Positions 2,147 to 28,894 are shown, counted from the first letter of the stretch. The stretch: DNA of 32,000 nucleotides from Sinorhizobium meliloti (GCF_017876815.1 NZ_JAGIOS010000003.1:330001-362000), one strand, 5' to 3'. Notes: generated by a model not told the origin, from the sequence alone. Numbers and translations are program-made.

Positions 2147-2211
2147 TTGTGGTTCCAATGAGTCCATCAAGGAGCTAGGTTCATCGGGAAGTGCTAGCCA
2201 GGGAGGGTGCG

Positions 2212-3078: not shown

Positions 3079-3108
3079 CCGCCTTATGATCAGACGCCAT
3101 TCACGGAG

Positions 3109-4023: not shown

Positions 4024-4047
4024 CGTTTCAGAATTCTGGAGAGAACG

Positions 4048-9667: not shown

Positions 9668-9826
9668 ACTCTACATCCGCACGCTCGATTTATGGTTCAT
9701 GTCGATAGATGTAAGAGAACTATGCCCACTAATCCATAGGCTATGCTTTTGCTACCGTCCCAGCTGAAACAGTTTGCTCGCTGTTTCCGCGCCCGTTTTC
9801 CCGCAAGCTGCATTGAGGACACCGCC

Positions 9827-10273: not shown

Positions 10274-10287
10274 TCGGGAGCGACACC

Positions 10288-13692: not shown

Positions 13693-13754
13693 TCGGCGGC
13701 GCCATCACCAGGGCCGTACTGCCGCGCCTGGTATGGGCTCAAAAGGAGACTAAC

Positions 13755-16821: not shown

Positions 16822-17709
16822 TCAGCCGATCACCTTCTGAGCCTCGGCGATGATCCAGTCGCGCACCTTCGAGACGGTCGTTCCTTTCGACGCCTGTCCT
16901 TCGGCGAGGTAGTAGTTCCACGCGCTCCTGGTGCGGATCTGAAACGGCTCGACGAGCAGGCCGCGATCCACATAGGTCCGCGCGAGCGACTGGGTGGTCA
17001 CGATGCAGCCGGCGCCGCTCGCCGCCATTTCCAGCGCGATATTGGTGGAATTGGTGGAAAGCCGCTTGTCGTTTGCGGATGCATCTATGCCGAGCGCATC
17101 GGCCATTTCCTGCCAGAACTCCTGCCGCCCGTGCACGGCGATCCAATTCGATTTAAGAACGTCGGCCGGCGTCCTGATTGCATTCTGGCCGTGGACGAGC
17201 TGGGGCGCGCATAGAAGCACAAGCCGGTCGTTCCACAATTGCATGCCGCTTGCCGGCATGTTGTCGAATCGTCGGATCGAAATCAGGATGTCGGCGATTT
17301 GCTCGGTCGAATCCTCCCAGATCGTACCGTGCAGAAGGATTTCCACGTCGGGATGTTTCCTGCTGAACCCGGCCACGCACCTTGCCAGCCAGTTTTCGGC
17401 AAGGCTCGTTGGGCAGGAGATGACGACGGTTTTGTTGCGTGCCGACGCAAGAACCGCTTCCGTAGCGAAATCGATCTGGTTCAGAGCCTGGCGCAGGGTG
17501 GGAAGAAAGGCCTCGCCCATCTCGGTCAGCTTGAGGCTGCGCGGATAGCGGATGAAGAGCTGGCGCCCGAGATATTGCTCGAGCGCCCGCACATGATTGC
17601 TGATGGCGGCCTGCGTATAGCCCAGTTCGCTGGCCGCCTCGGTGAAGCTGAGATGCCGGGCAGAGCACTCGAAGGAGCGGATGTAGTTCAATGGCGGCGG
17701 CGGCTTCAT
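16822..17709 (-). CDS. LysR-family transcriptional regulator
   Basis: HTH SFECSARHLSFTEAASELGYTQAAISNHVRALE. Start taken at MKPPPPLNYIRSF (ATG 17709, preceded by GGGAA). The 35-aa upstream extension in the track ORF (to 17814) is atypical for LysR proteins. Confidence 0.85.
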   Translation of the reverse strand: MKPPPPLNYIRSFECSARHLSFTEAASELGYTQAAISNHVRALEQYLGRQLFIRYPRSLKLTEMGEAFLPTLRQALNQIDFATEAVLASARNKTVVISCPTSLAENWLARCVAGFSRKHPDVEILLHGTIWEDSTEQIADILISIRRFDNMPASGMQLWNDRLVLLCAPQLVHGQNAIRTPADVLKSNWIAVHGRQEFWQEMADALGIDASANDKRLSTNSTNIALEMAASGAGCIVTTQSLARTYVDRGLLVEPFQIRTRSAWNYYLAEGQASKGTTVSKVRDWIIAEAQKVIG

Positions 17710-17753
17710 CTGAAGTTCCCTTTTGTGCGACGCTAGCCTGCCCGCTCCGGCAC

Positions 17754-17766
17754 TTGCAAGACGCAA
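17754..17766. promoter_or_regulatory. Candidate LysR box (T-N11-A): TTGC-AAGAC-GCAA
   Basis: Inverted repeat TTGC/GCAA with a 5-nt spacer, 13 nt in total, in the 224-bp divergent region between the LysR gene and the MttB-family gene. A CCATG-A-CATGG palindrome and a T8 run follow at 17772-17790. Confidence 0.35.
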
Positions 17767-17933
17767 GCGTGCCATGACATGGTTTTTTTTGGGCATTGCC
17801 GCCGAACTTATCATGTGAAGACCGGTGCATCATTGGCCATAGTTTCGGTGAGCGGAACAGAAAAAGCACAAGTATTCGGAGCAGGCCTTCTGTGGCCTAG
17901 CTGCGCGGATCAGGGGATGAAAGGCAGTTCTCG

Positions 17934-19469
17934 ATGAGCGGCAGACGCGGCGGCGGAAGACGATCGCGAGCAATCCGGGGCGGCGATGGTATCTCGCAGC
18001 TGCCATGGCAGGAGGTCGTCAACACCTATGCCCCGATGCAGCTTCTCGACGAGGAGCGTATTGAGGCCCTTCACCGCAATTCGATGCGCATCCTCTCCGA
18101 AATCGGCATTCGCGTTATGAGCGAAAAGGCGATGGCGCTGTTCGAGAAGGCGGGCGCAATCGTCGACCGCGAGAACCTGATGATCCGCATCGACGAATCC
18201 ATCGTCGAGGCGGCGCTCGCCACGACGCCGTCTTCCTTCACGCTGACCAGCCGCAATCCCGAAAAACGGCTGACGATCGGCGGCAACACGATCGCCTTTG
18301 GGCTCGTGGCAGGTCCGCCCAACGTGCACGACCGGGTCAACGGCCGGCGGCAAGGCAATCTCGCCGATTACCAGAACTTCACGCGTCTGGCCCACCACTT
18401 CAACGCTATCCACATTCTCGGGAACCAGGTCTGCGCGCCGATGGAGCTGCCGGCCAATTCCCGGCACCTCGATACCTACAAGGCGAATCTTACGCTCAGC
18501 GATCTTTGCTTCCACTGCACCGCCATCGGGCGGGGGCGGGCCGTGGACGGCATCAACATGATGGCGATCGCGCGCGGCATCAGCGTCGAGGAGATGAGCC
18601 AATCCCCCGGCGTCATCACGATCATCTCGGTGAACTCGCCGCGGCTTTTCGACGACGCGATGGCGGACGGACTGATCGCCATGGCCGAGCACGGGCAGCC
18701 GGTGACCATCACGCCCTTCACGCTGATGGGCGCCATGACGCCGGTGACGCTTGCGGCAGCACTCTGCCAGCAGAATGCCGAGGCGCTGTTCGGCGTCACG
18801 CTTGCGCAGCTGGTCAATCCGGGTACGCCGGTCATGTATGGTGCATTCACGTCCAATGTGGACATGCGCTCCGGCGCCCCCGCCTTCGGCACGCCGGAGA
18901 ACGCCAAGGCCAACATTATCGCGGGCCAGCTCGCGCGGCGCTACAAGCTTCCCTATCGCACGTCGAACGCAAATGCCTCTAACGCCGTCGACCTTCAGGC
19001 AGCCTACGAGACGGAAATGGCGACTTGGGGTGCGGTGCTCGGGGGTGCCAACCTCATCTATCACGCGGCGGGATGGCTCGAAGGCGGCCTCACGGCCTCC
19101 TATGAGAAGCTCGTGCTCGATGTGGAGATCCTGCAGAACATGATGGGCTTCCTCGAGCCCATGCCCTTCTCCGAGGACGATCTCGGCTTCGACGCTATCA
19201 GATCCGTACCGGCGGGCGGGCACTTCTTCGGTTCCGAACACACGATGGCGCGATACGAGACGGCCTTCTATCAGCCGATGCTGTCCAACTGGCAGAATTA
19301 CGGCAGCTGGCAGGAAGCCGGCGGCCGCGACGCGCTGGAGCGCGCGACCGACATCTGGCAGCAGGCCCTGCGAGAATATGAGGAGCCGGTACTCGACCCG
19401 GCGATCCGGGAAGAGCTCGATGCCTACATGATCAAGCGGCGCGCGGAGATCGGGGCGGGCGAACCTTGA
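17934..19469 (+). CDS. MttB-superfamily (trimethylamine methyltransferase-like) protein, non-pyrrolysine type
   Basis: 511 aa, uninterrupted with no in-frame amber codon. Arg/Gly-rich N-terminus followed by LPW...N.Y.P...L..E.IE.LH..SMRILSEIGI, as I recall for bacterial non-Pyl MttB homologues. TIM-barrel-sized body. Confidence 0.8.
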   Translation: MSGRRGGGRRSRAIRGGDGISQLPWQEVVNTYAPMQLLDEERIEALHRNSMRILSEIGIRVMSEKAMALFEKAGAIVDRENLMIRIDESIVEAALATTPSSFTLTSRNPEKRLTIGGNTIAFGLVAGPPNVHDRVNGRRQGNLADYQNFTRLAHHFNAIHILGNQVCAPMELPANSRHLDTYKANLTLSDLCFHCTAIGRGRAVDGINMMAIARGISVEEMSQSPGVITIISVNSPRLFDDAMADGLIAMAEHGQPVTITPFTLMGAMTPVTLAAALCQQNAEALFGVTLAQLVNPGTPVMYGAFTSNVDMRSGAPAFGTPENAKANIIAGQLARRYKLPYRTSNANASNAVDLQAAYETEMATWGAVLGGANLIYHAAGWLEGGLTASYEKLVLDVEILQNMMGFLEPMPFSEDDLGFDAIRSVPAGGHFFGSEHTMARYETAFYQPMLSNWQNYGSWQEAGGRDALERATDIWQQALREYEEPVLDPAIREELDAYMIKRRAEIGAGEP

Positions 19470-19476
19470 GGGGCAG

Positions 19477-20469
19477 ATGAGGGATACGCAGGAAATCCGC
19501 TTTGCGGTATTGATGTTTCCGAACTTTCCGTTGATGGCTTTCAGTTCGGTCATCGAGCCGCTGCGCGCAGCCAACACGTTGTCCGGCAGGCGCTGCTATT
19601 CCTGGCTCACGGTCGCTGCCGGCGAGAAGATCAGCGCGTCGAATGGCATCGGTATCGAGCCGGACTTTCATGTGCGCAACGCACCAGAGGTTGATCGAAT
19701 TGTCGTGTGTTCGGGCGGTGACGCAGAGCATCTCGTCGCGGACGAGGAGATGGCGTGGATCCGCAAGAATCTCCGCGCCGGGGCGCTACTTGGTGCGGTG
19801 GCCGATGCTGCCTTCTTCCTGGCGCGCAAAGGGCTGCTCGACGGCCACTCCTGCACGCTCCACTGGACCAGCCAGCCGGCCTTCAAGGAAGCGTTCCCGC
19901 ATCTCGACATGCGCTCGGACCTCTATGTGATCGACCGCCGCCGCTTCACCTCCGTCGGCGGCATCGGCAGCCTCGACATGATGCTGGACATGATCGGACG
20001 GGACTATGGCGCCGAGCTCGCCGACGGCGTCGCCGGCTGGTTCATGCACAGCCCGCTGCGGCCGGACGCCGATCGCCGGAAGCTGACCTTGCGTATCCGG
20101 AGCGGCATCGCCGACGACCTGGTCCTTTCCGCGGTGGCGATGATGGAGGACGCCATCGAGGACGTTTTGCGGATCGAGGACCTGGCAAGCCGGCTGAATG
20201 TCTCATCCGATAAGCTCGAACGCGCCTTCAAGGCCGAACTTGGCGTGTCGCCCAACAGCTACTATCGCAATCTGCGGCTCGGTCATGCGGCAGACATGCT
20301 GACGCATTCAAACCTCAAGGTGAATGAAGTCGCCGTCGCGTGCGGTTTCGTAAATGCCGCAAACTTCTCCCGCGCCTTCAAAGAGCAGTTCGGATATGTC
20401 CCGCACAGCGTTCGCCGCCGCGTCTCGCGAGCGGGCGAGGCGCCCCGCGCAGTCGCGGGGCTGAAATAA
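19477..20469 (+). CDS. GlxA-family regulator (DJ-1/PfpI-like N-domain + AraC HTH); GbdR/CdhR/SouR-type
   Basis: N-terminal FAVLMFPNFPLMAFSSVIEPLRAAN and GGIGSLDMMLDMI (amidotransferase-like sensor domain). C-terminal AraC HTH (VACGFVNAANFSRAFKEQFGYVP). Starts 7 nt after the MttB-family stop. Confidence 0.85.
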   Translation: MRDTQEIRFAVLMFPNFPLMAFSSVIEPLRAANTLSGRRCYSWLTVAAGEKISASNGIGIEPDFHVRNAPEVDRIVVCSGGDAEHLVADEEMAWIRKNLRAGALLGAVADAAFFLARKGLLDGHSCTLHWTSQPAFKEAFPHLDMRSDLYVIDRRRFTSVGGIGSLDMMLDMIGRDYGAELADGVAGWFMHSPLRPDADRRKLTLRIRSGIADDLVLSAVAMMEDAIEDVLRIEDLASRLNVSSDKLERAFKAELGVSPNSYYRNLRLGHAADMLTHSNLKVNEVAVACGFVNAANFSRAFKEQFGYVPHSVRRRVSRAGEAPRAVAGLK

Positions 20470-20560: not shown

Positions 20561-21865
20561 ATGAGCATTGTTGTATTCGATCCCGACAGCGTGGATGACG
20601 TGGACTTCAAGGACCGGATGCGCCATCCGGAGACAGCCGATCCGGCCGGCGGCATGTGGCTTTCGGACACGGAACCGTCCTTTATCGACGCCGACGCCCT
20701 GCGCAACGGGCGTTTGAAGAAGCTTCGCGACTGGATGCGCGCTGCCGGTTACGGCGCGGTGGTCCTTTTCGACCCCTATAACCAACGCTACGCGACGGGC
20801 TCCCGAAACATGTTCGGGTATTTCCTGCGTAACTCCACCCGCTATTTCTTCATCCCCACTGAAGGTCCGGTCGTCCTCTTCGAATATCCGCAGAGCTATC
20901 ACGTCTCGATGGTCCTCGACACGATAGACGAGGCTCGCCCCTCCAAGCTTGTCTGGTCCTCCGTCTCCGGTAAGGACGACGAGACCGCCGGGCCGTTCGC
21001 GGACGAGATTACCGATTTGCTCAAGCAGCATGGCGGCGGGTCGATGAAGCTCGGCATGGACCGCTGCAGCCATCTGCAGGCACTGGCGCTCGAAAAGCGC
21101 GGGTGCGAGGTGAAGGACTGCCAGGGCGAAATTCTCGCCGTCAGGGCCGTCAAGACTCCTGAAGAGATCAAATGCCTACAGGTATCCATGGCCGGCGCCG
21201 AAGCTGCCGTGGCCGCCGTGCGCGAAGCGATCAAGCCGGGCGTTTCCGAAAACGAGCTCTTCGCGATCATGTATCATGAAGTGATTCGGCAGGGCGGCGA
21301 GTTCATCGAGACCCGGCTGCTGAGTTCCGGCCAGCGAACCAATCCCTGGTTCAACGAGGCAAGCGGCCGCAAGATCAGGCCGGGTGAGCTCGTGGCCCTC
21401 GATACCGATACGATCGGCTGCTACGGCTACTATTCCGATTTCTCGCGAACCTTCCGCTGCGGTCCCGGTAAGCCGACCCCTTACCAGAAGTCGCTCTACC
21501 GGATGGCCTACGACCAGGTTCAGCACAATATCGACATCGTCAAGCCGGGTATGGCCTTCCGCGAGATCGCCGAAAAGGCCTGGAAGATACCAGACCGCTT
21601 CGTCGATCAGCGTTACACGTCCGTGATGCACGGCGTCGGCATGCACGGCGAGACGCCGTTCATCGCCCATGCGATGGACTACGAGACCTACGGTCGCGAT
21701 GGACATCTCGTGCCCGGAATGGTCGTGTCGGTCGAAAGCTATATCGGCGAAAAGGGCGGCCGAGAGGGCGTGAAACTCGAAGACGAGATCCTCATTACGG
21801 AGAACGGCACGGAGCTCCTGTCGCGCTTTCCCTATGAGGACGAATTCCTGAGCGGGGAGACTTGA
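20561..21865 (+). CDS. M24-family metallohydrolase (creatinase/prolidase fold), DddP-like by eye
   Basis: Creatinase_N-like segment (RLKKLRDWMRAAGYGAVVLFDPYNQRYATG). Metal-ligand pattern ALDTDTIGCYGYYSDFSRTF, MHGVG, VSVESY, KLEDEILITENG. AAGGAG SD before the ATG. Confidence 0.8.
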   Translation: MSIVVFDPDSVDDVDFKDRMRHPETADPAGGMWLSDTEPSFIDADALRNGRLKKLRDWMRAAGYGAVVLFDPYNQRYATGSRNMFGYFLRNSTRYFFIPTEGPVVLFEYPQSYHVSMVLDTIDEARPSKLVWSSVSGKDDETAGPFADEITDLLKQHGGGSMKLGMDRCSHLQALALEKRGCEVKDCQGEILAVRAVKTPEEIKCLQVSMAGAEAAVAAVREAIKPGVSENELFAIMYHEVIRQGGEFIETRLLSSGQRTNPWFNEASGRKIRPGELVALDTDTIGCYGYYSDFSRTFRCGPGKPTPYQKSLYRMAYDQVQHNIDIVKPGMAFREIAEKAWKIPDRFVDQRYTSVMHGVGMHGETPFIAHAMDYETYGRDGHLVPGMVVSVESYIGEKGGREGVKLEDEILITENGTELLSRFPYEDEFLSGET

Positions 21866-22545
21866 TGAAGAAACCGTTGCGGATCGACCGCGCGAAAGCC
21901 GCCGCCCTTTTTATCGATCTCCAGGAGGAGCATCGCCGCGACGAGCGCTATCTCGTCGAAGGTTACGATACGGTGCTCGGCAATGCCGCACGCCTTCAGT
22001 CGGCGGCCCGCCGAAGCGGCATCCCCGTCTTTCACTGCGCCTATATCGTCGATCTCGCCGACAATCTTCGCCCGTTCCATCCGATCGGACCGGACGGACG
22101 TTCCGCCTTCAGCGACAAGGACGATCCGCTCACGGCGATTTGCCCGGAGGTCGCTCCGCTTCCGTCGGAGCGGCTGCTTGTCAAAAACGAAGCGAGCGCC
22201 TTCGGCAAGAGCCCCTTGATCGGCGAATTGCGGGACGCAGGCGTGGAATGGCTGGTGATCGCCGGCGTCTGGACCGAGGCTTGTGTCGATGCAACGGTCA
22301 AGGACGCGATCAACCTTGGCCTGCATGTCCTACTCGTCAAGGATGGCTGCGGCAGCGGCGGCCTTGCGATGCACCAGACCGGCATTCTCAATCTGGCGAA
22401 CCGCCTCTATGGCGGTGCGGTCGTCGGTACCGAAGCCGCTTGCGCCCTTCTGGAAGGAGATACGGTCGAAGCATGGCGGGTCGAGGGATCGGTGCCCCTG
22501 CGTTACACTTTCGAGAATGCCGCTAAACTTTACGGCGAACTCTGA
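21865..22545 (+). CDS. Isochorismatase-family cysteine hydrolase
   Basis: Candidate Asp-Lys-Cys triad contexts ALFIDLQ, LLVKNEASAF and GVWTEACVD. The ATG at 21865 overlaps the upstream TGA (TGATG). The track uses TTG 21862. Confidence 0.8.
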   Translation: MKKPLRIDRAKAAALFIDLQEEHRRDERYLVEGYDTVLGNAARLQSAARRSGIPVFHCAYIVDLADNLRPFHPIGPDGRSAFSDKDDPLTAICPEVAPLPSERLLVKNEASAFGKSPLIGELRDAGVEWLVIAGVWTEACVDATVKDAINLGLHVLLVKDGCGSGGLAMHQTGILNLANRLYGGAVVGTEAACALLEGDTVEAWRVEGSVPLRYTFENAAKLYGEL

Positions 22546-22610: not shown

Positions 22611-22695
22611 TTATTGGAATCGGTCACGCGCATGGTTTCAGGTCGAACCGGCCTGAGACATCGTGATGCAGTTTAGGAGAGGCAGGCGGCAACGA

Positions 22696-23358
22696 ATGGA
22701 GATCGTTCGGTTCATCATCGACAATCTGGACATCATAGGCACGCGGACGATCGAGCACATTTCGATCGTCTTCCTGGCGGTTGGGATTGCGATCGCGACG
22801 GCCGTTCCGATCGGGGTTGCGATCACGCAGTCGAAGAGCACGGCCGACACCGTTCTCTATCTCGCGTCGATGATGATCACCGTTCCCTCGATTGCGCTGT
22901 TCGGCCTGATGATCCCGCTGCTCTCGCCGATCGGGCATGGCATCGGCTATGTCCCGGCGGTCGTAGCCGTCATTCTCTATTCCCAGCTTCCCATCATCCG
23001 CAACACCTACACCGCCATCACCAATGTCGATCCGGCTCTTCGGGAGGCCGCGAAAGGGATGGGGATGAGCACCTGGCAACGTCTGCGCCAGGTCGAAATC
23101 CCGCTTGCCATTCCGGTCATCATGGCCGGCGTCAGGACTGCCGTCGTCATGAACATCGGCGTGACAGCGATTGCGGCCTATATCGGCGCAGGCGGCCTTG
23201 GCACGTTCATCTCGCGCGGCATCAGCCAGTCCGATCCCCGTCAACTGGTGACCGGAGCGCTGGCGGTTTCGCTGCTTGCGATCGCAGCCGACCTTTTCCT
23301 CGCGCTCGTGCAGCGCCTTCTCACGTCACGCGGTATTCAGGGGGAGGTCACGCCATGA
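22696..23358 (+). CDS. ABC transporter permease, OpuCB/OpuBB (betaine/choline/carnitine) type
   Basis: Polytopic membrane protein carrying the binding-protein-dependent permease signature region (LREAAKGMGMSTWQRLRQVEIPLAIPVIMAGVRT). The start is uncertain: ATG 22696, ATG 22666 or GTG 22663. Confidence 0.8.
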   Translation: MEIVRFIIDNLDIIGTRTIEHISIVFLAVGIAIATAVPIGVAITQSKSTADTVLYLASMMITVPSIALFGLMIPLLSPIGHGIGYVPAVVAVILYSQLPIIRNTYTAITNVDPALREAAKGMGMSTWQRLRQVEIPLAIPVIMAGVRTAVVMNIGVTAIAAYIGAGGLGTFISRGISQSDPRQLVTGALAVSLLAIAADLFLALVQRLLTSRGIQGEVTP

Positions 23359-24470
23359 TCCGGCTCGAGAATCTGACGAAACACTACGGCCCGGCGCATG
23401 ATCCGCTCATTGCCGTCGACAATGTGAGTCTAGACTTACCCACCGGAGAGATCTGCGTGCTGCTCGGTCCCTCGGGATGCGGCAAGACGACGACGATGAA
23501 GATGATCAACCGTCTGATCCAGCCAACCAGCGGCAAGGTCTTCATCAACGGCAAGGACACGAGCACCATCGATCCGATCAAGCTGCGGCGGACCATCGGC
23601 TATGTGATCCAGCAGATCGGCCTTTTCCCGAACAAGACGATCGAGGAAAATATCTGTGTCGTGCCGGACCTTCTGGGCTGGGATCGCCGCAAGTCGCGCG
23701 CCCGCGCCAAAGAGCTCCTCGAGCTTGTCGGCCTCCAGCCCGACCTTTTCCTCAAGCGCTACCCGAAGGAACTTTCAGGCGGCCAGCAGCAGCGTGTCGG
23801 CGTTCTGCGCGCCCTTGCGGCCGATCCGCCGGTCATGCTGATGGACGAGCCGTTCGGGGCGATCGATCCGATCAACCGCGAAGCCATCCAGGAGGAGTTC
23901 CTGAAGATGCAGCGGGAGATCCGCAAGACGATCATCTTCGTCTCACACGATCTCGACGAAGCGGTGAAGATGGCGGACAAGATCGCGATCTTCCGCAGCG
24001 GCAGGCTCGAACAATATGCCGCGCCCGACGAACTGCTCGCCCGTCCCGCCAACAGCTTCATCGAAGACTTCCTGGGCTCGGACCGGGCACTCAAGCGGCT
24101 GAGGCTCGTCTCGGTGCGCGACGCCATGGAGACGGGTTTCATCACGGTCCGGAGCTCGGACTCGGTCGAGCATGCGCTTGAGCGCATGCGATCGTCGCGC
24201 AGCGCTGCAGTCTTTGTGCTGAACGCCGACGGCGCACCGCAATCTCTCTTGAGTGAGCAGGTGGCGGAGCTGCGCTCCGGTACGGTGGGCGATCATGCGG
24301 AACCGGTAAAGTCTGCCGTCCCGACCACCGGCGATCTTAGGCAGGCCGTGTCGATAATGTTCGCCCACGACATGCCGCTGCTGCCCTGCGTCGACGAGGG
24401 CGGTCGGATGGCAGGCGTGATGAGCTACCGTTCCATCGTGCACTATCTCGCCCATGGAGCAAAGGCATGA
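23355..24470 (+). CDS. ABC transporter ATP-binding protein with a C-terminal tandem CBS domain (OpuCA/OpuBA type)
   Basis: Walker A GPSGCGKTT. Signature LSGGQQQRV. Walker B VMLMDEPF. CBS-like C-terminal ~120 aa. ATGA overlap with the upstream permease. Confidence 0.9.
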   Translation: MIRLENLTKHYGPAHDPLIAVDNVSLDLPTGEICVLLGPSGCGKTTTMKMINRLIQPTSGKVFINGKDTSTIDPIKLRRTIGYVIQQIGLFPNKTIEENICVVPDLLGWDRRKSRARAKELLELVGLQPDLFLKRYPKELSGGQQQRVGVLRALAADPPVMLMDEPFGAIDPINREAIQEEFLKMQREIRKTIIFVSHDLDEAVKMADKIAIFRSGRLEQYAAPDELLARPANSFIEDFLGSDRALKRLRLVSVRDAMETGFITVRSSDSVEHALERMRSSRSAAVFVLNADGAPQSLLSEQVAELRSGTVGDHAEPVKSAVPTTGDLRQAVSIMFAHDMPLLPCVDEGGRMAGVMSYRSIVHYLAHGAKA

Positions 24471-25222
24471 GCGCTCTCGTCAGCCCGGCCGCACCGCAGC
24501 AAAGGCGCCGGATCGAGACCGCGCCTTTGATCGTGCTCATCGTGCTGGCCGGAACCGTCGCCTGGCTGTGGTGGAGCGGCATGGCAGAGGAAATCCTCGC
24601 CTATTCCGACGACATCTCCTATCTCACCGTGCAGCATCTGGAACTGGTCGCCTGGGCGGGAGGGCTTGCCATCCTTGTGGCCGTACCGGTCGGCATCGTG
24701 CTTTCGCGGCCCGCCTTCCGCCTCGTTTCGGAGGCGGTGATGCAAGTCTTCAATATCGGCAGCACCGTGCCGACGCTTGCGATTCTGGCGCTTTCTATGA
24801 CGCTGCTCGGGATCGGTACGGTGCCCGCGGTCTTCGGTCTCTGGGCGGCCACCCTCCTTCCGATCGTGCGCAACACCTATGCCGGCCTGCGCGCCGTGCC
24901 GCCGCACCTCGTGGAGGCCGCAACCGGCATGGGCATGACGCCGCGGCAGGTTCTGTGGCGGGTCGAACTTCCAAACGCCCTCTTCGTGATCTTCGGCGGC
25001 ATCCGCACGGCGCTCGCGATCTGCGTCGGCTCCGCGCCTCTGGTCTTTCTGATCGGCGCGGGCGGGCTTGGCGAACTGATCTTCACCGGGATCTCGCTGG
25101 ACGAACTCCCGATGATGATGGCCGGGGCCATTCCCACGGCAATGCTCGCGGTCCTGGTCGATTTCATCGTCGGCCAGATTCAGTACTACCTCGTTCCACG
25201 GGGCATCAATCCGCTGCGATAA
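24467..25222 (+). CDS. ABC transporter permease, OpuCD/OpuBD type
   Basis: Second polytopic permease with the EAA-like region (LVEAATGMGMTPRQVLWRVELPNALFVIFGGIRT). ATGA overlap with the ATPase gene. Confidence 0.88.
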   Translation: MSALVSPAAPQQRRRIETAPLIVLIVLAGTVAWLWWSGMAEEILAYSDDISYLTVQHLELVAWAGGLAILVAVPVGIVLSRPAFRLVSEAVMQVFNIGSTVPTLAILALSMTLLGIGTVPAVFGLWAATLLPIVRNTYAGLRAVPPHLVEAATGMGMTPRQVLWRVELPNALFVIFGGIRTALAICVGSAPLVFLIGAGGLGELIFTGISLDELPMMMAGAIPTAMLAVLVDFIVGQIQYYLVPRGINPLR

Positions 25223-25245
25223 CAAAATGAGAGAGAGGAACTGAA

Positions 25246-26136
25246 ATGAACTTCGCACCGAAACTTGCCAAGACCCTTCTGTCGGCGGCGGCCATCGCGC
25301 TCGTAACGACGACCGCCTGGGCCGCCACCATTACCGTCGGCGGGAAAAACTTCACCGAGCAGCTGATCATCGCAGAGATTACCAAGCAGCTCCTCGAGAG
25401 CAAGGGCCACACCGTCGACAAGAAAGACGGCATGGGCACGAAGATCGTCCGCGCCGCACTGGAGAATGGCGAGGTCGATCTCTACTGGGAATACACGGGG
25501 ACGTCGCTCATCACCTTCAACAAGGTGACGGAACGGCTTTCGCCGGAGGAGACCTACAACCGCGTCAAGGAACTGGACGGCGAAAAAGGCCTCGTCTGGC
25601 TCGCACCGTCCGCAGCGAACAATACTTACGCCTATGTCGTCAAGCCGGGTAACGCCAAGACGGAAGGCATGGAGACGATCTCCGACCTCGCCAAGGCATA
25701 TAACGACGGCAAGGATATACTCATGGGCACGACGGCCGAATTTCCGAAGCGGCCGGACGGCCTGATCGGCCTGGAGAAGGTCTACGGCTTCGAGACAGGG
25801 CGCGCCAATGTGCGGCCGATGGACCTTGGTCTTGCCTACAATGCGCTGGCCAACGGCGATCTCGACACCATCGCCGCGCAGGCGACCGACGGCCAGATCG
25901 CGGCACTCGGCTTGAAGACGCTGAAGGACGACAAGGGCTTCTTTCCCAACTATGCGCTGACCCCCGTCGTGCGCAAGGAAGTGCTCGACGCGAATCCGGA
26001 CCTCAAGGAAACGCTCGAAACGGTCTCGAAGAAGCTCGATGACGCCACGATGCAGCGTTTGAACAGCCAGGTCGATGTGGAGAAGAAGACCATCGAAACG
26101 GTCGCCGCCAACTATCTGAAGTCGCTCGGCATGTAA
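25246..26136 (+). CDS. Glycine betaine/quaternary-amine ABC substrate-binding protein (OpuCC/OpuBC-like), Sec signal
   Basis: Signal peptide ...LVTTTAWA|A. TVGGKNFTEQLIIAEI, DLYWEYTGT and a C-terminal LN..VD region, typical of the OpuAC-fold family. Confidence 0.85.
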   Translation: MNFAPKLAKTLLSAAAIALVTTTAWAATITVGGKNFTEQLIIAEITKQLLESKGHTVDKKDGMGTKIVRAALENGEVDLYWEYTGTSLITFNKVTERLSPEETYNRVKELDGEKGLVWLAPSAANNTYAYVVKPGNAKTEGMETISDLAKAYNDGKDILMGTTAEFPKRPDGLIGLEKVYGFETGRANVRPMDLGLAYNALANGDLDTIAAQATDGQIAALGLKTLKDDKGFFPNYALTPVVRKEVLDANPDLKETLETVSKKLDDATMQRLNSQVDVEKKTIETVAANYLKSLGM

Positions 26137-26167
26137 AACGCGCCGCATTTATCGACGAACGTCTCGT

Positions 26168-26194
26168 CCCGCCTGCAGGTTTCCTGCCGGCGGG
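26168..26194 (+). terminator. Intergenic GC-rich hairpin after the SBP gene (possible attenuator or terminator)
   Basis: CCCGCCTGCAGG-TTT-CCTGCCGGCGGG. 12 positions with 1 mismatch and a tight loop. No U-tract, so read-through into the enolase gene is plausible. Confidence 0.35.
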
Positions 26195-26271
26195 CGGGAA
26201 GGATGCGTGCCGGAGAACCCGGCGCAGATATACCGGATCGGCCGTGCCGGCCGTCTTTTCGAGGAACGAGA

Positions 26272-27396
26272 ATGGTCAAAATATCAAACGTCCGCGTCCG
26301 CCCGCTGGTTCTGCCGCTCAAGCAGCCCTACCACTGGTCCTACGGCATCCGCGAATCTTTTGCGGTCAACCTTATCGAGATCGAGGCGGATGACGGCACG
26401 GTCGGCATCGGCGAATGCACGGTCGCGCCGGACCAGACCGGTACGGCGGCGATCCTTTATCGCCTCGCCAAACATCTCGTCGGCCATTCGCCTCACGACG
26501 TGGCACCGCTCATCGCTCGCATCTTCCACCAGGAATATCTCGGGCATGGCGCCAATATCATGCGGGCGGCCAACCAGATATTTTCTGGCATCGACATGGC
26601 CATGTGGGATCTTCAAGGCAAGCTCGCCGGCCTGCCGGTTCACCAGCTGCTTGGGGGCGCTCACCGGAAGGCGGTCGGCTACTTCTATTTCCTGCAGGGC
26701 GAAACCGCCGAGGAGCTTGCGCGCGATGCCGCCGTCGGCCACGCCCAGGGCGAGCGGGTCTTCTATCTCAAGGTCGGCCGCGGAGAGAAACTCGACCTCG
26801 AGATCACCGCGGCGGTTCGCGGCGAGATCGGCGACGCGCGGCTTCGCCTCGATGCGAACGAAGGCTGGAGCGTCCATGACGCGATCAACATGTGCCGCAA
26901 GCTCGAAAAATACGACATCGAATTCATCGAGCAGCCGACCGTCAGCTGGAGCATTCCGGCCATGGCGCATGTGCGCGAGAAAGTCGGTATTCCGATCGTT
27001 GCGGATCAGGCTGCCTTCACGCTCTACGACGTCTACGAGATATGCCGCCAGCGTGCTGCGGACATGATCTGCATCGGCCCGCGCGAGATCGGCGGCATAC
27101 AGCCGATGATGAAGGCGGCAGCCGTGGCGGAGGCCGCCGGACTGAAGATCTGCATCCACTCTTCCTTCACCACGGGCATCACCACCTGCGCTGAGCACCA
27201 TATCGGGCTTGCCATTCCCAATCTCGACGACGGAAACCAGATCATGTGGCAGCTCGTCCAGGAGGACATCGTCTCCTCGCCCGATCTCGCGCCCAAAAAC
27301 GGCTGGCTCGATGCCTTCAGGAAGCCGGGACTTGGTTTCCAGCTCGCCGAAGACCTGGTCGCCGAAGGCGAAGGACGCTACGCGGCAAGCCGATGA
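26272..27396 (+). CDS. Enolase-superfamily protein (mandelate racemase/muconate lactonizing enzyme family), atypical catalytic residues
   Basis: Barrel motifs FYLKVGRG, RLDANEGW, IEQP, IVADQ and ICIHSS. ATG at 26272 follows GAGGAACGAG. The 23-aa upstream extension in the track ORF is not typical. Confidence 0.8.
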   Translation: MVKISNVRVRPLVLPLKQPYHWSYGIRESFAVNLIEIEADDGTVGIGECTVAPDQTGTAAILYRLAKHLVGHSPHDVAPLIARIFHQEYLGHGANIMRAANQIFSGIDMAMWDLQGKLAGLPVHQLLGGAHRKAVGYFYFLQGETAEELARDAAVGHAQGERVFYLKVGRGEKLDLEITAAVRGEIGDARLRLDANEGWSVHDAINMCRKLEKYDIEFIEQPTVSWSIPAMAHVREKVGIPIVADQAAFTLYDVYEICRQRAADMICIGPREIGGIQPMMKAAAVAEAAGLKICIHSSFTTGITTCAEHHIGLAIPNLDDGNQIMWQLVQEDIVSSPDLAPKNGWLDAFRKPGLGFQLAEDLVAEGEGRYAASR

Positions 27397-28397
27397 CGCC
27401 GGTCGAGACCTCCTGGGAAGAGATCGAGGCGGTTTGCCTCGAGGCGCTGACGCTCCATGGTGCGGCAGCCGAAAACGCACGCGCCGTGGCGGGCGCGATC
27501 GCCACGGCTGAGGCCGATGGCAATCGCGTCTGCGGCCTTTACTACCTGCCGATCTTCTGCAGGCACCTGGCGATCGGAAAGGTCGATGGAGAAGCCGTTC
27601 CCGCGGTGACGACGCGCGGTGTGACGGTTACGGTCGACGCAAGATCCGGCTTCGCACATCCCGCCATAGCCGCCGGCACGCCGGCCCTGATCGACCTTGC
27701 ACGCCAGGCGGGCCTCGCGGCAATGGCGGTGCGCAACTCCTATAATTGCCTCGCGCTCGGTCATCACGTCCGGCCCCTTGCCGACGCCTGCCTTATCGGC
27801 ATCTGCGTTTCGAATGCGCCTGCCTCTGTCGCGCCGCCCGGTGCGACGCGGGCGCTCTTCGGCACGAACCCGCTTGCCTTCGCCGTACCTTCGAAAGAAG
27901 GGGCTCCGACAATCATGGTCGATCAGAGCATGAGTGCTGTCACCAAGACGGAGATGATCCTGCGCCGCGATCGAGGCGAGGCAATCCCGATCGGCTGGGC
28001 GCAGGACGGGAACGGACAGCCGACGACCGACGCGGCCACCGGGCTGGAAGGCTCTCTGCTGCCCGCCGGCGGTCGCAAGGGCGCCAATATCGCCCTTCTC
28101 GTGGAAGTCCTTGCTGCGGCCCTGACGGGTTCGGCCCTCAGCACGGAGGCGAGCGCCTTTGGAAACGAGGAGGGTGGGCCGCCGCATGTCGGCCAGTTCC
28201 TGATCGCGATCGACCCTGATCACTTCGCCGCCGGTCACTTCTCCGAAGCGATGGATAATCTGGTCGCCTCCCATGGCGCCGCCGGGGTAAGGCTTCCCGG
28301 CCACTTTGGACGAAAGCAGCCCGTTTGCGTCGATGCTGATCTTTGGAAGAGGGCCGTTTTGCTTTCGCAATCGAAGGTCGGTCAGAAGCCTGGATAA
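27393..28397 (+). CDS. Ldh2-family (malate/L-lactate dehydrogenase type 2, DpkA/ComC/AllD-like) protein, atypical active site
   Basis: Conserved family blocks GTNPLAFAVP, LPAGGRKGANIALLVEVL and GQFLIAIDP. ATG 27393 overlaps the enolase-gene stop (ATGA). The track ORF start 27246 lies inside the upstream gene. Confidence 0.8.
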   Translation: MTPVETSWEEIEAVCLEALTLHGAAAENARAVAGAIATAEADGNRVCGLYYLPIFCRHLAIGKVDGEAVPAVTTRGVTVTVDARSGFAHPAIAAGTPALIDLARQAGLAAMAVRNSYNCLALGHHVRPLADACLIGICVSNAPASVAPPGATRALFGTNPLAFAVPSKEGAPTIMVDQSMSAVTKTEMILRRDRGEAIPIGWAQDGNGQPTTDAATGLEGSLLPAGGRKGANIALLVEVLAAALTGSALSTEASAFGNEEGGPPHVGQFLIAIDPDHFAAGHFSEAMDNLVASHGAAGVRLPGHFGRKQPVCVDADLWKRAVLLSQSKVGQKPG

Positions 28398-28440: not shown

Positions 28441-28469
28441 TTGCGAAACTGCATGCACTGCCATATATT
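28441..28469 (+). promoter_or_regulatory. Sigma-70-like promoter of the toxin-antitoxin operon: TTGCGA-17 nt-TATATT
   Basis: Read directly: -35 TTGCGA (28441-28446), a 17-nt spacer, and -10 TATATT (28464-28469). An inverted repeat ATATTT-N8-AAATAT (28465-28484) overlaps the -10 and is a plausible antitoxin operator. Confidence 0.5.
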
Positions 28470-28504: not shown

Positions 28505-28894
28505 ATGGCTCAGGCTCAAAAGATCCAAAGCGATAGCGGACCGCTGATACTTTCCTACATGGACAAGGGCGGAAAGATCGCGATTCAGCAGGTCGCGGAC
28601 GGCTTCGGCATGTCGAAAACGCAACTTGCCGAAACGGCCGGGCTTGCGCGTGAAACGCTCTACCGGCCGGAGCGCAGCCGGGGGACGAAGACGCAGAACC
28701 GTCTCCGCGAAATGCTCGAGATCATCAGCCGGGTCACCGACTGGGCGGGCGGCAAGGAGCAGGCAATGGCGTGGTATCGCGCCCAGCCCCTCCCGGCATT
28801 CGGCGGGCGAACGGCCGAAGCTCTGGTGAAGGACGGCAAGGCGGCGGCCGTGCGCGATTATCTCGATCACATGGCCCTCGGGGGCTTTGCTTGA
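28505..28894 (+). CDS. Xre-like antitoxin with a DUF2384 (MbcA/ParS-type) toxin-binding domain
   Basis: 129 aa. HTH-like segment (IQQVADGFGMSKTQLAETAGLARETLYR). C-terminal ...AMAWYRAQPLPAFGGRTAEALVKDGKAAAVRDYLDHMALGGF is typical of DUF2384 antitoxins paired with RES toxins. Confidence 0.85.
   Translation: MAQAQKIQSDSGPLILSYMDKGGKIAIQQVADGFGMSKTQLAETAGLARETLYRPERSRGTKTQNRLREMLEIISRVTDWAGGKEQAMAWYRAQPLPAFGGRTAEALVKDGKAAAVRDYLDHMALGGFA

What the first reader, a model, noticed from the sequence alone, without database searches (positions are those of the whole stretch)
26272..28397. Translationally coupled enolase-superfamily / Ldh2 pair in which both members lack canonical catalytic residues
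The context resembles the hydroxyproline-betaine/proline-betaine loci in which the enolase-superfamily epimerase HpbD was discovered. Those loci combine a betaine SBP, demethylases and downstream proline-derivative enzymes. By-eye alignment shows deviations in both proteins.

Enolase member:
- Metal ligands appear present (DANEGW, IEQP, IVAD).
- The strand-2 K-x-K reads Y-L-K.
- The position 24 residues after the third ligand, where MLE-subgroup racemases/epimerases carry the second catalytic Lys (D-x-x-x-I-K-x-x-K-x-GG), reads I-G-P-R-E-I-GG, so Lys is replaced by Gly.
- A His appears about 51 residues after the third ligand (ICIHSS), as in the mandelate-racemase subgroup.

Ldh2 member:
- The family hallmark G-x-x-S-H-G-x-x-R (GFTSHGIGR in ComC, GIHSHGAVR in AllD, as I recall) reads GNRVCGLYY, so the His and Arg are lost.
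- The second conserved His (NHFG/GHSG) is also absent (SYNCLA).
- Structural blocks (GTNPLAFAVP, PAGGRKG, IAIDP) are retained.

An ATGA overlap couples the two genes. A co-evolved pair with altered chemistry is plausible.
Basis: partly seen in the sequence, partly recalled or inferred. Interest (0 to 1): 0.65.

Follow-up and report, generated by a model that had tools for sequence, protein, structure and literature searches.

The report
Odd enolase/Ldh2 pair in betaine locus
Two adjacent genes on the Sinorhizobium meliloti pSymA plasmid encode intact, selected enzymes of known folds whose usual catalytic residues are replaced in a conserved way; they sit in a betaine-breakdown gene cluster and their reaction is still unknown.

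Summary
Genes 26272-27396 (enolase superfamily, identical to PDB 2PGW, no assigned function) and 27393-28397 (Ldh_2 family) overlap by ATGA. Profile alignments confirm the register. The enolase protein keeps the three metal ligands and the strand-2 Lys (K167). It has Tyr for the first Lys of K-x-K, Gly269 for the strand-6 Lys, and His296 at strand 7. The Ldh_2 protein has Cys47 for the catalytic His, Tyr51 for the Arg and Asn118 for the second His. It keeps the NAD(P)H-binding Thr/Pro/Asp/Lys/Gly and a DpkA-like fold (TM 0.89).

These replacements are fixed in all 120 best homologues of each protein and in all 84 enolase loci. Both genes are under purifying selection (omega about 0.04-0.08 and about 0.2), so neither is decaying.

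All six Cys-type Ldh_2 genes whose surroundings I read have this enolase type within two genes, but the enolase gene often occurs without it. The enolase gene travels with N-demethylases (MttB, DMGDH-like, BHMT, Rieske), amidohydrolases and betaine-type transporters.

Best reading: a working module of quaternary-amine or N-methyl-amino-acid catabolism. A Lys/His enolase-type enzyme acts at C-alpha, and an Ldh_2 enzyme does hydride transfer on a tertiary-amine/iminium substrate that needs no His. The substrate is unknown. It is a new variant of known kinds.

The parts
26272..27396 (+). Enolase-superfamily gene (374 aa), the 2PGW family. Metal ligands D194, E220, D245. Y165-x-K167 at strand 2, G269 at strand 6, H296 at strand 7. 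E272 is invariant.
   Evidence: (373/374 residues identical to PDB 2PGW). Omega 0.04-0.08.
27393..28397 (+). Ldh_2-family gene (334 aa), Cys/Tyr variant clade. C47 replaces the catalytic His, Y50-Y51 replace Phe-Arg, Y117-N118 replace His-His. T158, P160, D177, K229 and G303 are kept.
   Evidence: AlphaFold model pLDDT 95.3. Foldseek to DpkA 1WTJ gives TM 0.89. Omega about 0.2.
27393..27396 (+). ATGA stop/start overlap of the two genes.
   Evidence: Kept in L002, L003, L004, L007 and L008. 4-nt overlaps also occur in L169, and in reversed gene order in L036.
26137..26271 (+). Structured intergenic region between the binding-protein gene and the enolase gene. GC hairpin at 26167-26199. Terminator-like hairpin at 26239-26253 followed by TCTTTTC, 19 nt before the ATG.
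   Evidence: z = -2.2, modest.
22663..26136 (+). ABC importer of the glycine-betaine/proline-betaine type: permease, CBS-domain ATPase, permease, OpuAC-family binding protein.
   Evidence: The binding protein is named SMa1462, 'ABC-type glycine-betaine transporter', in PMC3596328; assigning that locus tag to this gene is my inference from position, not checked against the 1021 annotation.
21862..22545 (+). Isochorismatase-family hydrolase (Cys amidohydrolase type).
   Evidence: Recurs next to the enolase gene in distant loci.
20561..21865 (+). M24 (creatinase/prolidase fold) protein, DddP-like but below the DddP cut-off (316.6 versus 600 bits).
   Evidence: Recurs in Kiloniella and in Halofilum (L028/L086, annotated by look-up); a 64%-identical tblastn match to the window's M24 gene lies next to the enolase gene in the Ectothiorhodospiraceae MAG L030.
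19477..20469 (+). GbdR-like AraC/DJ-1 regulator.
   Evidence: 289 bits, cut-off 480.
17934..19469 (+). MttB-superfamily (non-pyrrolysine) quaternary-amine methyltransferase.
   Evidence: 705.7 bits. Kept in the cluster in 20 of the 24 close relatives, and adjacent to the enolase gene in L036 and L037.
16822..17814 (-). Divergent LysR (GcvA-like) regulator.
14166..16586 (-). DMGDH-like FAD + GcvT fusion, a tetrahydrofolate-linked N-demethylase. This is one of the two most widely recurring neighbour families of the enolase gene.
   Evidence: 70-90% identical orthologues within a few kb of the enolase gene in 17 of the 80 loci, 8 of them distant.

Best explanation
Shown: both genes encode folded, functional proteins under purifying selection. 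They belong to two uncharacterised sub-families, and the substituted active-site residues are themselves conserved. The Cys-type Ldh_2 gene is found with this enolase type in every locus looked up. The enolase gene is embedded, in many lineages, in loci for uptake and N-demethylation of betaines or N-methyl amino acids.

Inferred mechanism:
1. The cluster imports a quaternary or N-methylated amino acid, of the proline-betaine kind.
2. The MttB-family methyltransferase, probably passing the methyl group to a corrinoid protein encoded elsewhere, and the DMGDH-like enzyme remove N-methyl groups.
3. The enolase-superfamily enzyme binds the substrate carboxylate on Mg2+ (D194/E220/D245). It abstracts or returns the alpha-proton with Lys167 on one face and His296 on the other. 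His296 takes over from the lost strand-6 Lys, giving a mandelate-racemase-like base pair in a muconate-lactonizing-like scaffold. The result is a 1,1-proton transfer (racemase/epimerase) or, if a beta leaving group is present, an elimination.
4. The Ldh_2 enzyme still binds NAD(P)(H) and transfers hydride to or from C-alpha of an N-alkylated substrate (tertiary amine <-> iminium cation). Such a substrate has no N-H proton to move, which makes the family's general acid/base His dispensable.
5. The Arg and His residues that bind anionic or neutral 2-oxo/imino acids are replaced by Tyr/Phe/Tyr. These suit a cationic methyl-ammonium group.

The identity of the substrate is not established.
For: Function and selection:
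- Omega is 0.04-0.08 for the enolase gene and 0.18-0.22 for the Ldh_2 gene, against five relatives.
- The variant motifs are fixed: F-Y-L-K, C-I-G-P-R-E-x-G-G and C-I-H-S-S in 120 homologues and 84 loci; G-N-x-V-C-G-L-[FY]-Y and S-Y-N in 120 homologues.

Cofactor site and fold:
- Five of the seven Ldh_2 cofactor-site residues listed for AllD (Thr156, Pro158, Asp174, Lys224, Gly306; PMC3527362) are invariant here as T158, P160, D177, K229 and G303.
- The model has pLDDT 95.3 and TM 0.89 to DpkA.

Catalytic geometry of the enolase member:
- K167 aligns with the strand-2 Lys of 2P88 and 3CT2.
- H296 is 51 residues after the third ligand. From my own knowledge, that is the spacing of His297 in mandelate racemase. 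It is also the spacing of the substrate-binding Asp293 of pdHpbD (D242+51).

Context:
- Close relatives share DMGDH/LysR/MttB/(GbdR, M24)/IsoC/OpuAC-ABC/ENO/LDH2.
- Distant enolase loci sit with BHMT + 2x DMGDH, TRAP + DMGDH, Opp-like SBP_bac_5 + esterase + GbdR + IsoC + DMGDH, GbcA-like Rieske + SoxA/B-like, BCCT + CN_hydrolase + M24, and DAO + RidA.

Aromatic-for-Arg pattern:
- Other Ldh_2 sub-clades with Arg->Tyr or Arg->Trp also lie next to MttB, Opp-like ABC and unusual enolase-superfamily genes.

Precedents:
- DpkA is described in the literature as an imine reductase used for reductive N-methylamination of 2-oxo acids (abstracts listed); that it also acts as an N-methyl-L-amino-acid dehydrogenase is from my own knowledge.
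- MttB-family MtgB works in aerobic alphaproteobacteria with a shared corrinoid module (PMC12478193).
Against: - No substrate has been identified, and there are no biochemical or genetic data for either protein.
- In Roseovarius the enolase gene lies between BHMT and two DMGDH-like genes. That is the glycine-betaine route, whose intermediates have no stereocentre, so a racemase role is not obvious there.
- In AllD, R48A and H116A are inactive, so the Ldh_2 variant could be dead as a dehydrogenase.
- The Asp partner of the mandelate-racemase His-Asp dyad is absent (Gly269).
- I could not inspect 2PGW coordinates or the model's side chains. The Lys/His geometry and the 'aromatic box' are inferred from sequence only.
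- The enolase gene often occurs without the Ldh_2 gene.
- S. meliloti already has other stachydrine genes elsewhere on pSymA (own knowledge; references cited).
Confidence: 0.45

Rival explanations
1. A dehydratase plus iminium/imine reductase. This would be an N-methylated analogue of the known cis-3-hydroxy-L-proline dehydratase (enolase superfamily) / delta1-pyrroline-2-carboxylate reductase (Ldh_2 or OCD family) route. The enolase enzyme would eliminate a beta-hydroxyl (Lys167 as base, His296 as acid), giving an enamine/iminium. The Ldh_2 enzyme would reduce it with NAD(P)H.
For: - The best NCBIfam and PDB relatives include the cis-3-hydroxy-L-proline dehydratase model (117.9 bits) and 4MGG (101.6 bits).
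- The closest solved Ldh_2 structure is the cyclic imine reductase DpkA.
- In Microvirga the enolase gene follows a DAO-type oxidase and a RidA imine/enamine deaminase.
- In Halofilum it follows a BesD/HalD-type Fe/2OG amino-acid hydroxylase-like gene and M24.
- One base plus one acid is enough for an elimination.
Against: - It scores far below the dehydratase cut-off (117.9 versus 500).
- The known dehydratase uses the Lys/Lys pair, which is broken here.
- A DpkA-type reduction of a neutral imine would need the missing His.
- No hydroxylated betaine has been tied to these loci.
Confidence: 0.2
2. The Ldh_2 protein is a catalytically dead pseudoenzyme. It would be kept as a structural, chaperoning or regulatory partner of the enolase enzyme, produced in fixed ratio through translational coupling.
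For: - It has lost three residues, two of which are essential in AllD (R48A and H116A are inactive). Both histidines are called invariant in the family.
- It evolves about five times faster at non-synonymous sites than its partner.
- The Cys-type clade was found with this enolase type in every case looked up.
- ATGA coupling.
Against: - The cofactor-site residues T158, P160, D177, K229 and G303 are invariant, and the replacing residues (C47, Y51, N118) are themselves conserved. This points to a working pocket.
- Sister clades show graded changes: His kept with Arg->Tyr, or Arg->Trp. This looks like specificity evolution.
- In Rhodobacterales the two genes are divergently oriented and separated by a binding-protein gene, and elsewhere the enolase gene works without it.
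Confidence: 0.15
3. The genes are what their database names say: a muconate cycloisomerase and a malate/lactate or sulfolactate dehydrogenase. Or they are decaying relics with no specific function.
For: The PDB entry 2PGW is titled 'muconate cycloisomerase'. JGI names homologues 'muconate cycloisomerase' and '(2R)-3-sulfolactate dehydrogenase'.
Against: - Every equivalog model is far below cut-off: TIGR02534 142 versus 335, sulfolactate DH 131 versus 500, AllD 108 versus 496.
- The catalytic strand-6 Lys of cycloisomerases and the His/Arg of Ldh_2 dehydrogenases are absent.
- There are no aromatic-catabolic or sulfonate genes nearby.
- Strong purifying selection excludes decay.
Confidence: 0.03

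Closest known systems
PDB 2PGW, 'muconate cycloisomerase' from Sinorhizobium meliloti 1021 (structural-genomics entry)
   Same: The same protein: 373 of 374 residues identical.
   Different: The deposit name is a homology label. No function is published in the searchable literature, and the protein lacks the strand-6 Lys that cycloisomerases use.
HpbD, 4-hydroxyproline betaine 2-epimerase / proline betaine racemase (P. denitrificans 4E8G/4J1O/4IZG)
   Same: Enolase-superfamily fold. Almost identical metal-ligand spacing (D194/E219/D242 versus D194/E220/D245). The strand-2 Lys is kept (Lys164 versus K167). Both are encoded beside betaine transporters and N-demethylases.
   Different: Only 80.6 bits of similarity. 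HpbD's second base Lys266 is Gly269 here. HpbD's ammonium-binding Asp293 position is His296 here. The partner demethylases are MttB/DMGDH types rather than Rieske/flavin types.
Mandelate racemase subgroup of the enolase superfamily (Lys at strand 2, His-Asp dyad at strands 7/6)
   Same: Lys at strand 2 and a His about 50 residues after the third ligand (the mandelate racemase numbering is from my own knowledge).
   Different: The Asp of the dyad is Gly269. Overall sequence is closer to the muconate-lactonizing subgroup (best hits 2P88 and 3CT2).
cis-3-hydroxy-L-proline dehydratase (enolase superfamily) with delta1-pyrroline-2-carboxylate reductase
   Same: The same two superfamilies working as neighbours on a cyclic amino/imino acid.
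   Different: NF043002 scores 117.9 versus a cut-off of 500. The Lys/Lys pair and the reductase His/Arg are missing.
DpkA, delta1-piperideine-2-carboxylate/pyrroline-2-carboxylate reductase, also an N-methyl-L-amino-acid dehydrogenase (1WTJ/2CWH)
   Same: Closest solved relative: E 2.8e-55, 34-35% identity, TM 0.89. Same fold and the same NADPH-site residues.
   Different: The general acid His54 is Cys47. The carboxylate-binding Arg58 is Tyr51. His-His of SHHF is Tyr-Asn. AHGD (His192-Gly193 backbone binders) is TKTE.
AllD / ComC / YiaK (canonical Ldh_2 dehydrogenases)
   Same: Pfam family and fold.
   Different: His44, Arg48 and His116 (AllD numbering) are all replaced. R48A and H116A AllD are inactive.

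Membership tests
Enolase superfamily (MR_MLE) | N-terminal capping domain plus C-terminal barrel domain | tested here: met
   PF02746 65.8 bits and PF13378 165.2 bits, both above cut-off. Identical to solved structure 2PGW.
Enolase superfamily (MR_MLE) | Three carboxylate metal ligands at the ends of strands 3, 4 and 5 | tested here: met
   D194, E220 and D245 align with the ligands of 2P88 and 3CT2. Invariant in 84/84 loci.
Muconate-lactonizing (MLE) subgroup | K-x-K at strand 2 and a catalytic Lys at strand 6 | tested here: not met
   Y165-L-K167 and G269.
Muconate/chloromuconate cycloisomerase (TIGR02534) | Score above the curated family cut-off | tested here: not met
   142.3 bits versus 334.95.
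Mandelate racemase subgroup | Strand-2 Lys plus strand-7 His hydrogen-bonded to a strand-6 Asp | tested here: inconclusive
   K167 and H296 are present and invariant. The Asp position is Gly269. Whether invariant E272 substitutes could not be checked without coordinates.
HpbD (hydroxyproline betaine 2-epimerase) | Close sequence relationship and the Lys164/Lys266 base pair with Asp293/Trp312 binding the ammonium group | tested here: not met
   80.6 bits to 4E8G. Lys266 is Gly and Asp293 is His.
cis-3-hydroxy-L-proline dehydratase (NF043002) | Score above the equivalog cut-off | tested here: not met
   117.9 bits versus 500.
Ldh_2 family (PF02615) | Family profile match and fold | tested here: met
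   261.5 bits versus 38.8. Model pLDDT 95.3, TM 0.89 to 1WTJ.
Ldh_2 family (PF02615) | Cofactor-site residues Thr156, Pro158, Asp174, Lys224, Gly306 (AllD numbering) | tested here: met
   T158, P160, D177, K229 and G303 are invariant in the clade.
Ldh_2 family (PF02615) | The two 'invariant' histidines (AllD His44 and His116) and the substrate Arg48 | tested here: not met
   C47, N118 and Y51.
DpkA / Pyr2C reductase / N-methyl-amino-acid dehydrogenase | General acid His54, carboxylate-binding Arg58 and Thr166 | tested here: not met
   His54 is Cys47 and Arg58 is Tyr51. The Thr of GTNP is kept.
DpkA / Pyr2C reductase / N-methyl-amino-acid dehydrogenase | NAD(P)H-dependent reduction of cyclic imino acids | not testable with these tools
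   Needs an enzyme assay.
Sulfolactate / ureidoglycolate / diketogulonate dehydrogenases | Score above equivalog cut-offs | tested here: not met
   131.5 versus 500; 108.4 versus 496.2; 108.6 versus 316.

The most novel reading that the evidence does not exclude
Enolase-superfamily plus Ldh_2-variant pairs form a recurrent, so far unrecognised two-enzyme module of aerobic quaternary-amine catabolism. It has arisen in several sequence flavours: the 2PGW type with Cys/Tyr Ldh_2, the 2PGW type with the 'GHGFYW' Ldh_2, and a different E-x-K enolase type with His/Tyr Ldh_2. In this module an Ldh_2 enzyme would carry out hydride transfer on permanently or transiently cationic N-methyl iminium substrates without any general acid/base, using an aromatic pocket in place of His/Arg/His. 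That would be a new catalytic solution within the Ldh_2 family. It would also open a new route for N-methyl amino acid or betaine breakdown, possibly releasing methylamines from C-alpha rather than by N-demethylation.
Probability: 0.25. Interest if true: 0.75.

Novelty: new variant of a known kind. Interest (0 to 1): 0.55.

Why it matters
Betaines and N-methyl amino acids are major plant, algal and osmolyte carbon and nitrogen sources for rhizobia and marine alphaproteobacteria. Parts of their aerobic catabolism are still being discovered; MtgBCD was reported only in 2025.

This locus carries a solved-but-unassigned enolase-superfamily structure (2PGW). Its catalytic layout fits neither classical subgroup. 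Beside it is an Ldh_2 clade that breaks the family's 'invariant histidine' rule while staying under selection.

Assigning their reaction would:
- give a function to a structural-genomics orphan;
- correct widespread 'muconate cycloisomerase' and 'sulfolactate dehydrogenase' annotations;
- possibly reveal a missing step in quaternary-amine degradation on a symbiotic plasmid.

Tried and rejected
1. Literature. Searches for 2PGW, SMa145x-148x locus tags, MttB/enolase/betaine combinations and proline-betaine terms found no functional study. SMa1462 appears only as a 'glycine-betaine ABC transporter' in one microarray paper.

2. Homarine. I suspected an N-methyl-pyridinium substrate. The published homABCDER operon has different enzymes (FAD protein, HomB, peptidase, aldehyde dehydrogenase), so there is no match.

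3. Trigonelline. It depends on pSymA. From my own recollection the trc genes map near nifAB, not here, and I could not verify this. Left as unlikely.

4. Single-sequence AlphaFold of the Ldh_2 protein was useless (pLDDT 34). I repeated it with a 78-sequence alignment. That used both prediction jobs, so no model of the enolase protein or of a complex was possible. Model coordinates are not exposed, so side-chain geometry could not be inspected.

5. The metagenome scan seeded with the Cys-clade alignment used generic patterns and returned only sister Ldh_2 clades. It did not give the reverse co-occurrence count I wanted, but it exposed the sister clades.

6. My own ORF caller (longest ORF, then GC3-weighted) missed genes in low-GC loci. 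Neighbour tallies are therefore lower bounds.

7. Rfam found no riboswitch or other RNA family in the window.

8. Decay or pseudogene status is rejected by dN/dS.
Full report
**Origin and anatomy**

The window is Sinorhizobium meliloti megaplasmid pSymA. It is 100% identical to strains SM11 and RU11/001 over the finding, and 99% identical to 1021 at 803336-805461. The finding's coordinates are exact.
- The enolase-superfamily gene runs from ATG 26272, nine bases after GAGGA, to the stop at 27394-27396.
- The Ldh_2 gene starts at ATG 27393 and ends at 28397. The two therefore overlap as ATGA.
- Homologue lengths (374-376 aa and 325-340 aa, full coverage) support both starts.
- The overlap is kept in Sinorhizobium psoraleae, S. 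medicae, Rhizobium sp. Root482 and two Shinella genomes.

**Checking the residue claims: the enolase member**

- Pfam places it in MR_MLE_N/MR_MLE_C.
- It is the crystallised protein 2PGW (373/374 identical), deposited as 'muconate cycloisomerase'. I found no functional paper for it.
- phmmer alignments to 2P88 and 3CT2 and numbering give metal ligands D194, E220 and D245.
- The strand-2 motif is Y165-L-K167 where relatives have K-x-K.
- G269 stands where relatives have the strand-6 catalytic Lys.
- H296 lies 51 residues after the third ligand.
- It reaches no NCBIfam equivalog cut-off: cycloisomerase 142 versus 335, cis-3-hydroxyproline dehydratase 118 versus 500.

**Checking the residue claims: the Ldh_2 member**

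- It scores 261.5 bits to PF02615. Its closest solved relative is the cyclic imine reductase DpkA (E 2.8e-55).
- DpkA DGSHSHGIFRIP aligns with DGNRVCGLYYLP. The general acid His54 becomes Cys47 and Arg58 becomes Tyr51.
- The SHHF/NHFG block reads SYNC, so the second His becomes Asn118.
- The AllD structure paper calls the two histidines invariant in the family. It reports R48A and H116A as inactive, and lists Thr156, Pro158, Asp174, Lys224 and Gly306 as the other cofactor-site residues (PMC3527362).
- A modelling paper describes His54 as DpkA's general acid and Arg58/Thr166 as carboxylate binders (PMC10127515).
- Here T158, P160, D177, K229 and G303 are all present.

**Is it more than chance or decay?**

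- All 120 best homologues of the Ldh_2 protein (49-97% identity) keep G-N-x-[VI]-C-G-L-[FY]-Y and S-Y-N-[CA]-L, as well as GTNP, DQS and GGxKG. In a 51-sequence alignment Y51, T158, P160, D177, K229 and G303 are invariant, and C47 and N118 are more than 90% conserved.
- All 120 best homologues of the enolase protein (59-99%) keep F-Y-L-K, C-I-G-P-[RV]-E-x-G-G and C-I-H-[SG]-S.
- All 84 genomic loci keep D194/E220/D245, Y-x-K, Gly and His.
- Nei-Gojobori estimates against five relatives give omega 0.04-0.08 for the enolase gene and 0.18-0.22 for the Ldh_2 gene.

Both genes are maintained by selection. The Ldh_2 gene is under looser constraint.

An AlphaFold model built on a 78-sequence alignment is confident (pLDDT 95.3). 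It superposes on DpkA with TM 0.89 and rmsd 2.1-2.2 Å, so the fold is intact.

**The wider Ldh_2 landscape**

An exhaustive search of cluster representatives shows that the query's neighbourhood in the family is not uniform. Besides the canonical S/G-H-G-x-x-R + S-H-H type there are four other types:
- the Cys/Tyr clade, to which this protein belongs;
- a large clade with S-H-G-L-x-Y + S-Y-N-C-G, in which the first His is kept, Arg becomes Tyr and the second His is lost;
- a G-H-G-F-Y-W clade, in which Arg becomes Trp;
- clades with Val or Ile at the His position.

The literature's 'invariant' histidines reflect the few solved members. Loss of the canonical residues is therefore a property of a whole branch, not of this pair alone.

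**Genomic context of the pair**

In the window the pair ends a same-strand run of genes. A DMGDH-like FAD/GcvT N-demethylase (14166-16586) and a LysR regulator (16822-17814) are read divergently from it. The run is:
- MttB-family methyltransferase (17934-19469);
- GbdR-like regulator (19477-20469);
- DddP-like M24 protein (20561-21865);
- isochorismatase-family hydrolase (21862-22545);
- a betaine-type ABC importer with an OpuAC binding protein (22663-26136), which I take to be the SMa1462 that one paper calls an 'ABC-type glycine-betaine transporter' (the tag assignment is my inference);
- the enolase and Ldh_2 genes.

A structured 135-nt spacer with a terminator-like hairpin precedes the enolase gene. 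A RES/Xre toxin-antitoxin pair follows the Ldh_2 gene.

**Context in other genomes**

A scan of one genome per species returned 80 loci.
- In relatives with more than 84% enolase identity the cluster DMGDH/LysR/MttB/(GbdR, M24)/IsoC/ABC/ENO/LDH2 is conserved. These are Sinorhizobium, Shinella, Rhizobium, Pseudaminobacter, Phyllobacterium, Mesorhizobium, Kumtagia, Tabrizicola and a Paracoccaceae MAG. GbdR, M24 or IsoC are sometimes missing.
- The five Labrys genomes and Rhizobium LjRoot254 lack the Ldh_2 gene.
- Across these genera the enolase protein stays 84-95% identical while the Ldh_2 protein drops to 59-84%.

More distant enolase loci (51-72%) show other partners:
- Opp-like SBP_bac_5 + esterase + GbdR-like + IsoC + DMGDH, with the Ldh_2 gene divergent (Rhodobacterales);
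- TRAP transporter + DMGDH (Roseovarius);
- BHMT (599 bits, above cut-off) - ENO - two DMGDH-like genes (Roseovarius);
- CN_hydrolase - ENO - LDH2 - M24 beside a BCCT transporter (Kiloniella);
- HalD-like hydroxylase - M24 - ENO (Halofilum);
- DAO - RidA - ENO (Microvirga);
- OpuAC - ENO - LDH2 followed by SoxA/B-like flavoproteins and a GbcA-like Rieske oxygenase (522 bits; Ancylobacter);
- no informative neighbours (Pacificispira).

All five Cys-type Ldh_2 look-ups, plus the window, have this enolase type within two genes: directly adjacent in four loci and separated by one divergently read SBP_bac_5 gene in two. Nineteen homologue pairs share a contig length. The dependence is therefore one-way: the Ldh_2 variant follows the enolase gene, not the reverse.

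**A wider pattern**

- In L036 and L066 the same enolase type is paired with the G-H-G-F-Y-W Ldh_2 type and an MttB gene. In L036 the order is SBP_bac_5 - LDH2 - ENO - MttB, again with a 4-nt overlap.
- In metagenome contigs the G-H-G-F-Y-W and S-H-G-L-x-R/Y types lie beside MttB, Opp-like ABC genes and a different, also unusual, enolase-superfamily protein with E-x-K at strand 2.

Enolase-superfamily plus non-canonical Ldh_2 thus looks like a recurring module in quaternary-amine loci. In each version the Ldh_2 Arg is replaced by an aromatic residue. From my own knowledge, the S. meliloti Prb proline-betaine importer is Opp-like. This makes the SBP_bac_5 association compatible with proline-betaine-type substrates.

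**Comparison with HpbD**

pdHpbD (4E8G/4J1O/4IZG) has ligands Asp194/Glu219/Asp242, catalytic Lys164 and Lys266, and substrate-binding Asp293 and Trp312 (PMC3950512).
- The present protein has the same ligand spacing and the Lys164 equivalent (K167).
- It has Gly for Lys266, and His296 at exactly the Asp293 position.
- It shares only 80.6 bits with HpbD.

It is not an HpbD orthologue. It could still work like a racemase or epimerase if His296, as in mandelate racemase (own knowledge: Lys166/His297), serves as the second base.

**Mechanistic reading**

Shown:
- intact folds;
- conserved metal and cofactor sites;
- conserved replacement residues;
- purifying selection;
- association with betaine transporters and four kinds of N-demethylase (MttB, DMGDH-like, BHMT, Rieske).

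Inferred:
- The enolase enzyme stabilises an enolate on Mg2+ and uses K167/H296 for proton transfer at C-alpha of an N-methylated amino-acid carboxylate.
- The Ldh_2 enzyme performs NAD(P)(H)-dependent hydride transfer at C-alpha of a tertiary amine/iminium. This step needs no N-H proton transfer and so no His.
- Tyr50/Tyr51/Tyr117 provide a pocket suited to a cationic N-methyl group instead of the Arg/His set that binds 2-oxo or imino acids.

DpkA's published use as an imine reductase for reductive N-methylamination of 2-oxo acids, and its N-methyl-L-amino-acid dehydrogenase activity (own knowledge), is a precedent for the chemistry. MtgB-type methyltransferases working aerobically with a shared corrinoid module (PMC12478193) explain an MttB gene without a neighbouring corrinoid protein.

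The main doubts:
- The substrate is unknown.
- The Roseovarius arrangement sits inside the glycine-betaine route, whose intermediates are achiral.
- AllD mutagenesis suggests the Ldh_2 variant might be inactive.
- I could not inspect three-dimensional side-chain geometry.

**Rivals**

- A dehydratase/iminium-reductase version, analogous to cis-3-hydroxyproline dehydratase plus Pyr2C reductase. It is favoured by the RidA, DAO and hydroxylase neighbours.
- A pseudoenzyme partner role for the Ldh_2 protein. It is favoured by the lost residues, the faster evolution and the one-way dependence.
- The database names, or decay. These are rejected by sub-threshold scores, missing residues, context and dN/dS.

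**Verdict**

These are new variants of two known enzyme families with unknown substrate. One of them is a structural-genomics orphan. Both sit in a betaine or N-methyl-amine catabolic island of a symbiotic plasmid.

Interest is moderate. A specialist would find the conserved loss of the 'invariant' Ldh_2 histidines and the Lys/His enolase layout notable and directly testable. It is not a new kind of system, and no function is demonstrated.

Noticed in passing
window 13125-14105 (junction at 13678): Relative to S. meliloti RCAM1750 the window lacks 653 bp (L001 6761-7413) inside an MFS transporter gene. The result is a chimeric ORF with an MFS_1 N-terminus (residues 24-166) fused to a cyclophilin-like domain.
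   Followed up: partly
window 28505-29409: An Xre/MbcA/ParS-type antitoxin (DUF2384) and a RES-domain NAD+ phosphorylase toxin lie immediately downstream of the Ldh_2 gene. A sigma-70-like promoter match sits at 28441-28469.
   Followed up: no
window 26137-26271: The spacer between the binding-protein gene and the enolase gene folds into a 10-bp GC hairpin (26167-26199). A terminator-like hairpin (26239-26253, then TCTTTTC) lies 19 nt before the start codon. This may be partial termination or mRNA stabilisation that sets the binding-protein-to-enzyme ratio (z = -2.2).
   Followed up: partly
window 9743-12896: A three-gene molybdenum hydroxylase of the IorAB/NicAB type: 2Fe-2S subunit, MoCo subunit and a cytochrome c subunit. 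It has its own LysR regulator (8744-9667). Xanthine-dehydrogenase-family genes also neighbour the pair in Kiloniella (L084) and L167.
   Followed up: no
window 2191-5814: Two paralogous oxygenase genes match only the VanA_C catalytic domain, with no Rieske domain detected. They are followed by a 588-aa fusion of a Rieske domain, a DmmA-like domain and a Fer2 reductase module. This is an unusual split of a Rieske-type demethylase system.
   Followed up: no
L036 5916-9650; L066; L132 216-4486; L138 6001-8467: A different Ldh_2 sub-clade (G-H-G-F-Y-W-L-Q, Arg->Trp, second His lost) lies next to MttB, Opp-like SBP_bac_5 transporters and enolase-superfamily genes, in marine and other metagenomes.
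   Followed up: partly
L114 2508-3617, L129 4821-5897, L137 4832-5938: Another uncharacterised enolase-superfamily type is encoded directly upstream of S-H-G-L-x-R Ldh_2 genes that have S-Y-N or S-Y-Y in place of S-H-H. It has F-E-F-K at strand 2, G-D at strand 6, Arg instead of His at strand 7, and an apparent gap at the third metal ligand.
   Followed up: no
L036 8019-9650: The MttB-family gene of this marine Rhodobacteraceae single-cell genome is split into two ORFs by an in-frame stop (8019-8714 and 8736-9650). This could be a sequencing error, a pseudogene or a recoded codon; I did not resolve it.
   Followed up: no
L074 6889-16499 and L078: In two Roseovarius genomes the enolase gene lies between a bona fide betaine-homocysteine methyltransferase (599 bits, above cut-off) and two DMGDH-like genes. 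This places it inside a glycine-betaine demethylation cluster whose intermediates are achiral.
   Followed up: partly
close-relative loci L002-L022: Across genera the enolase, M24 and MttB proteins stay 83-98% identical. The Ldh_2, isochorismatase and ABC ATPase proteins fall to 59-75%. This suggests recent horizontal spread of the cluster with very uneven constraint among its genes.
   Followed up: no
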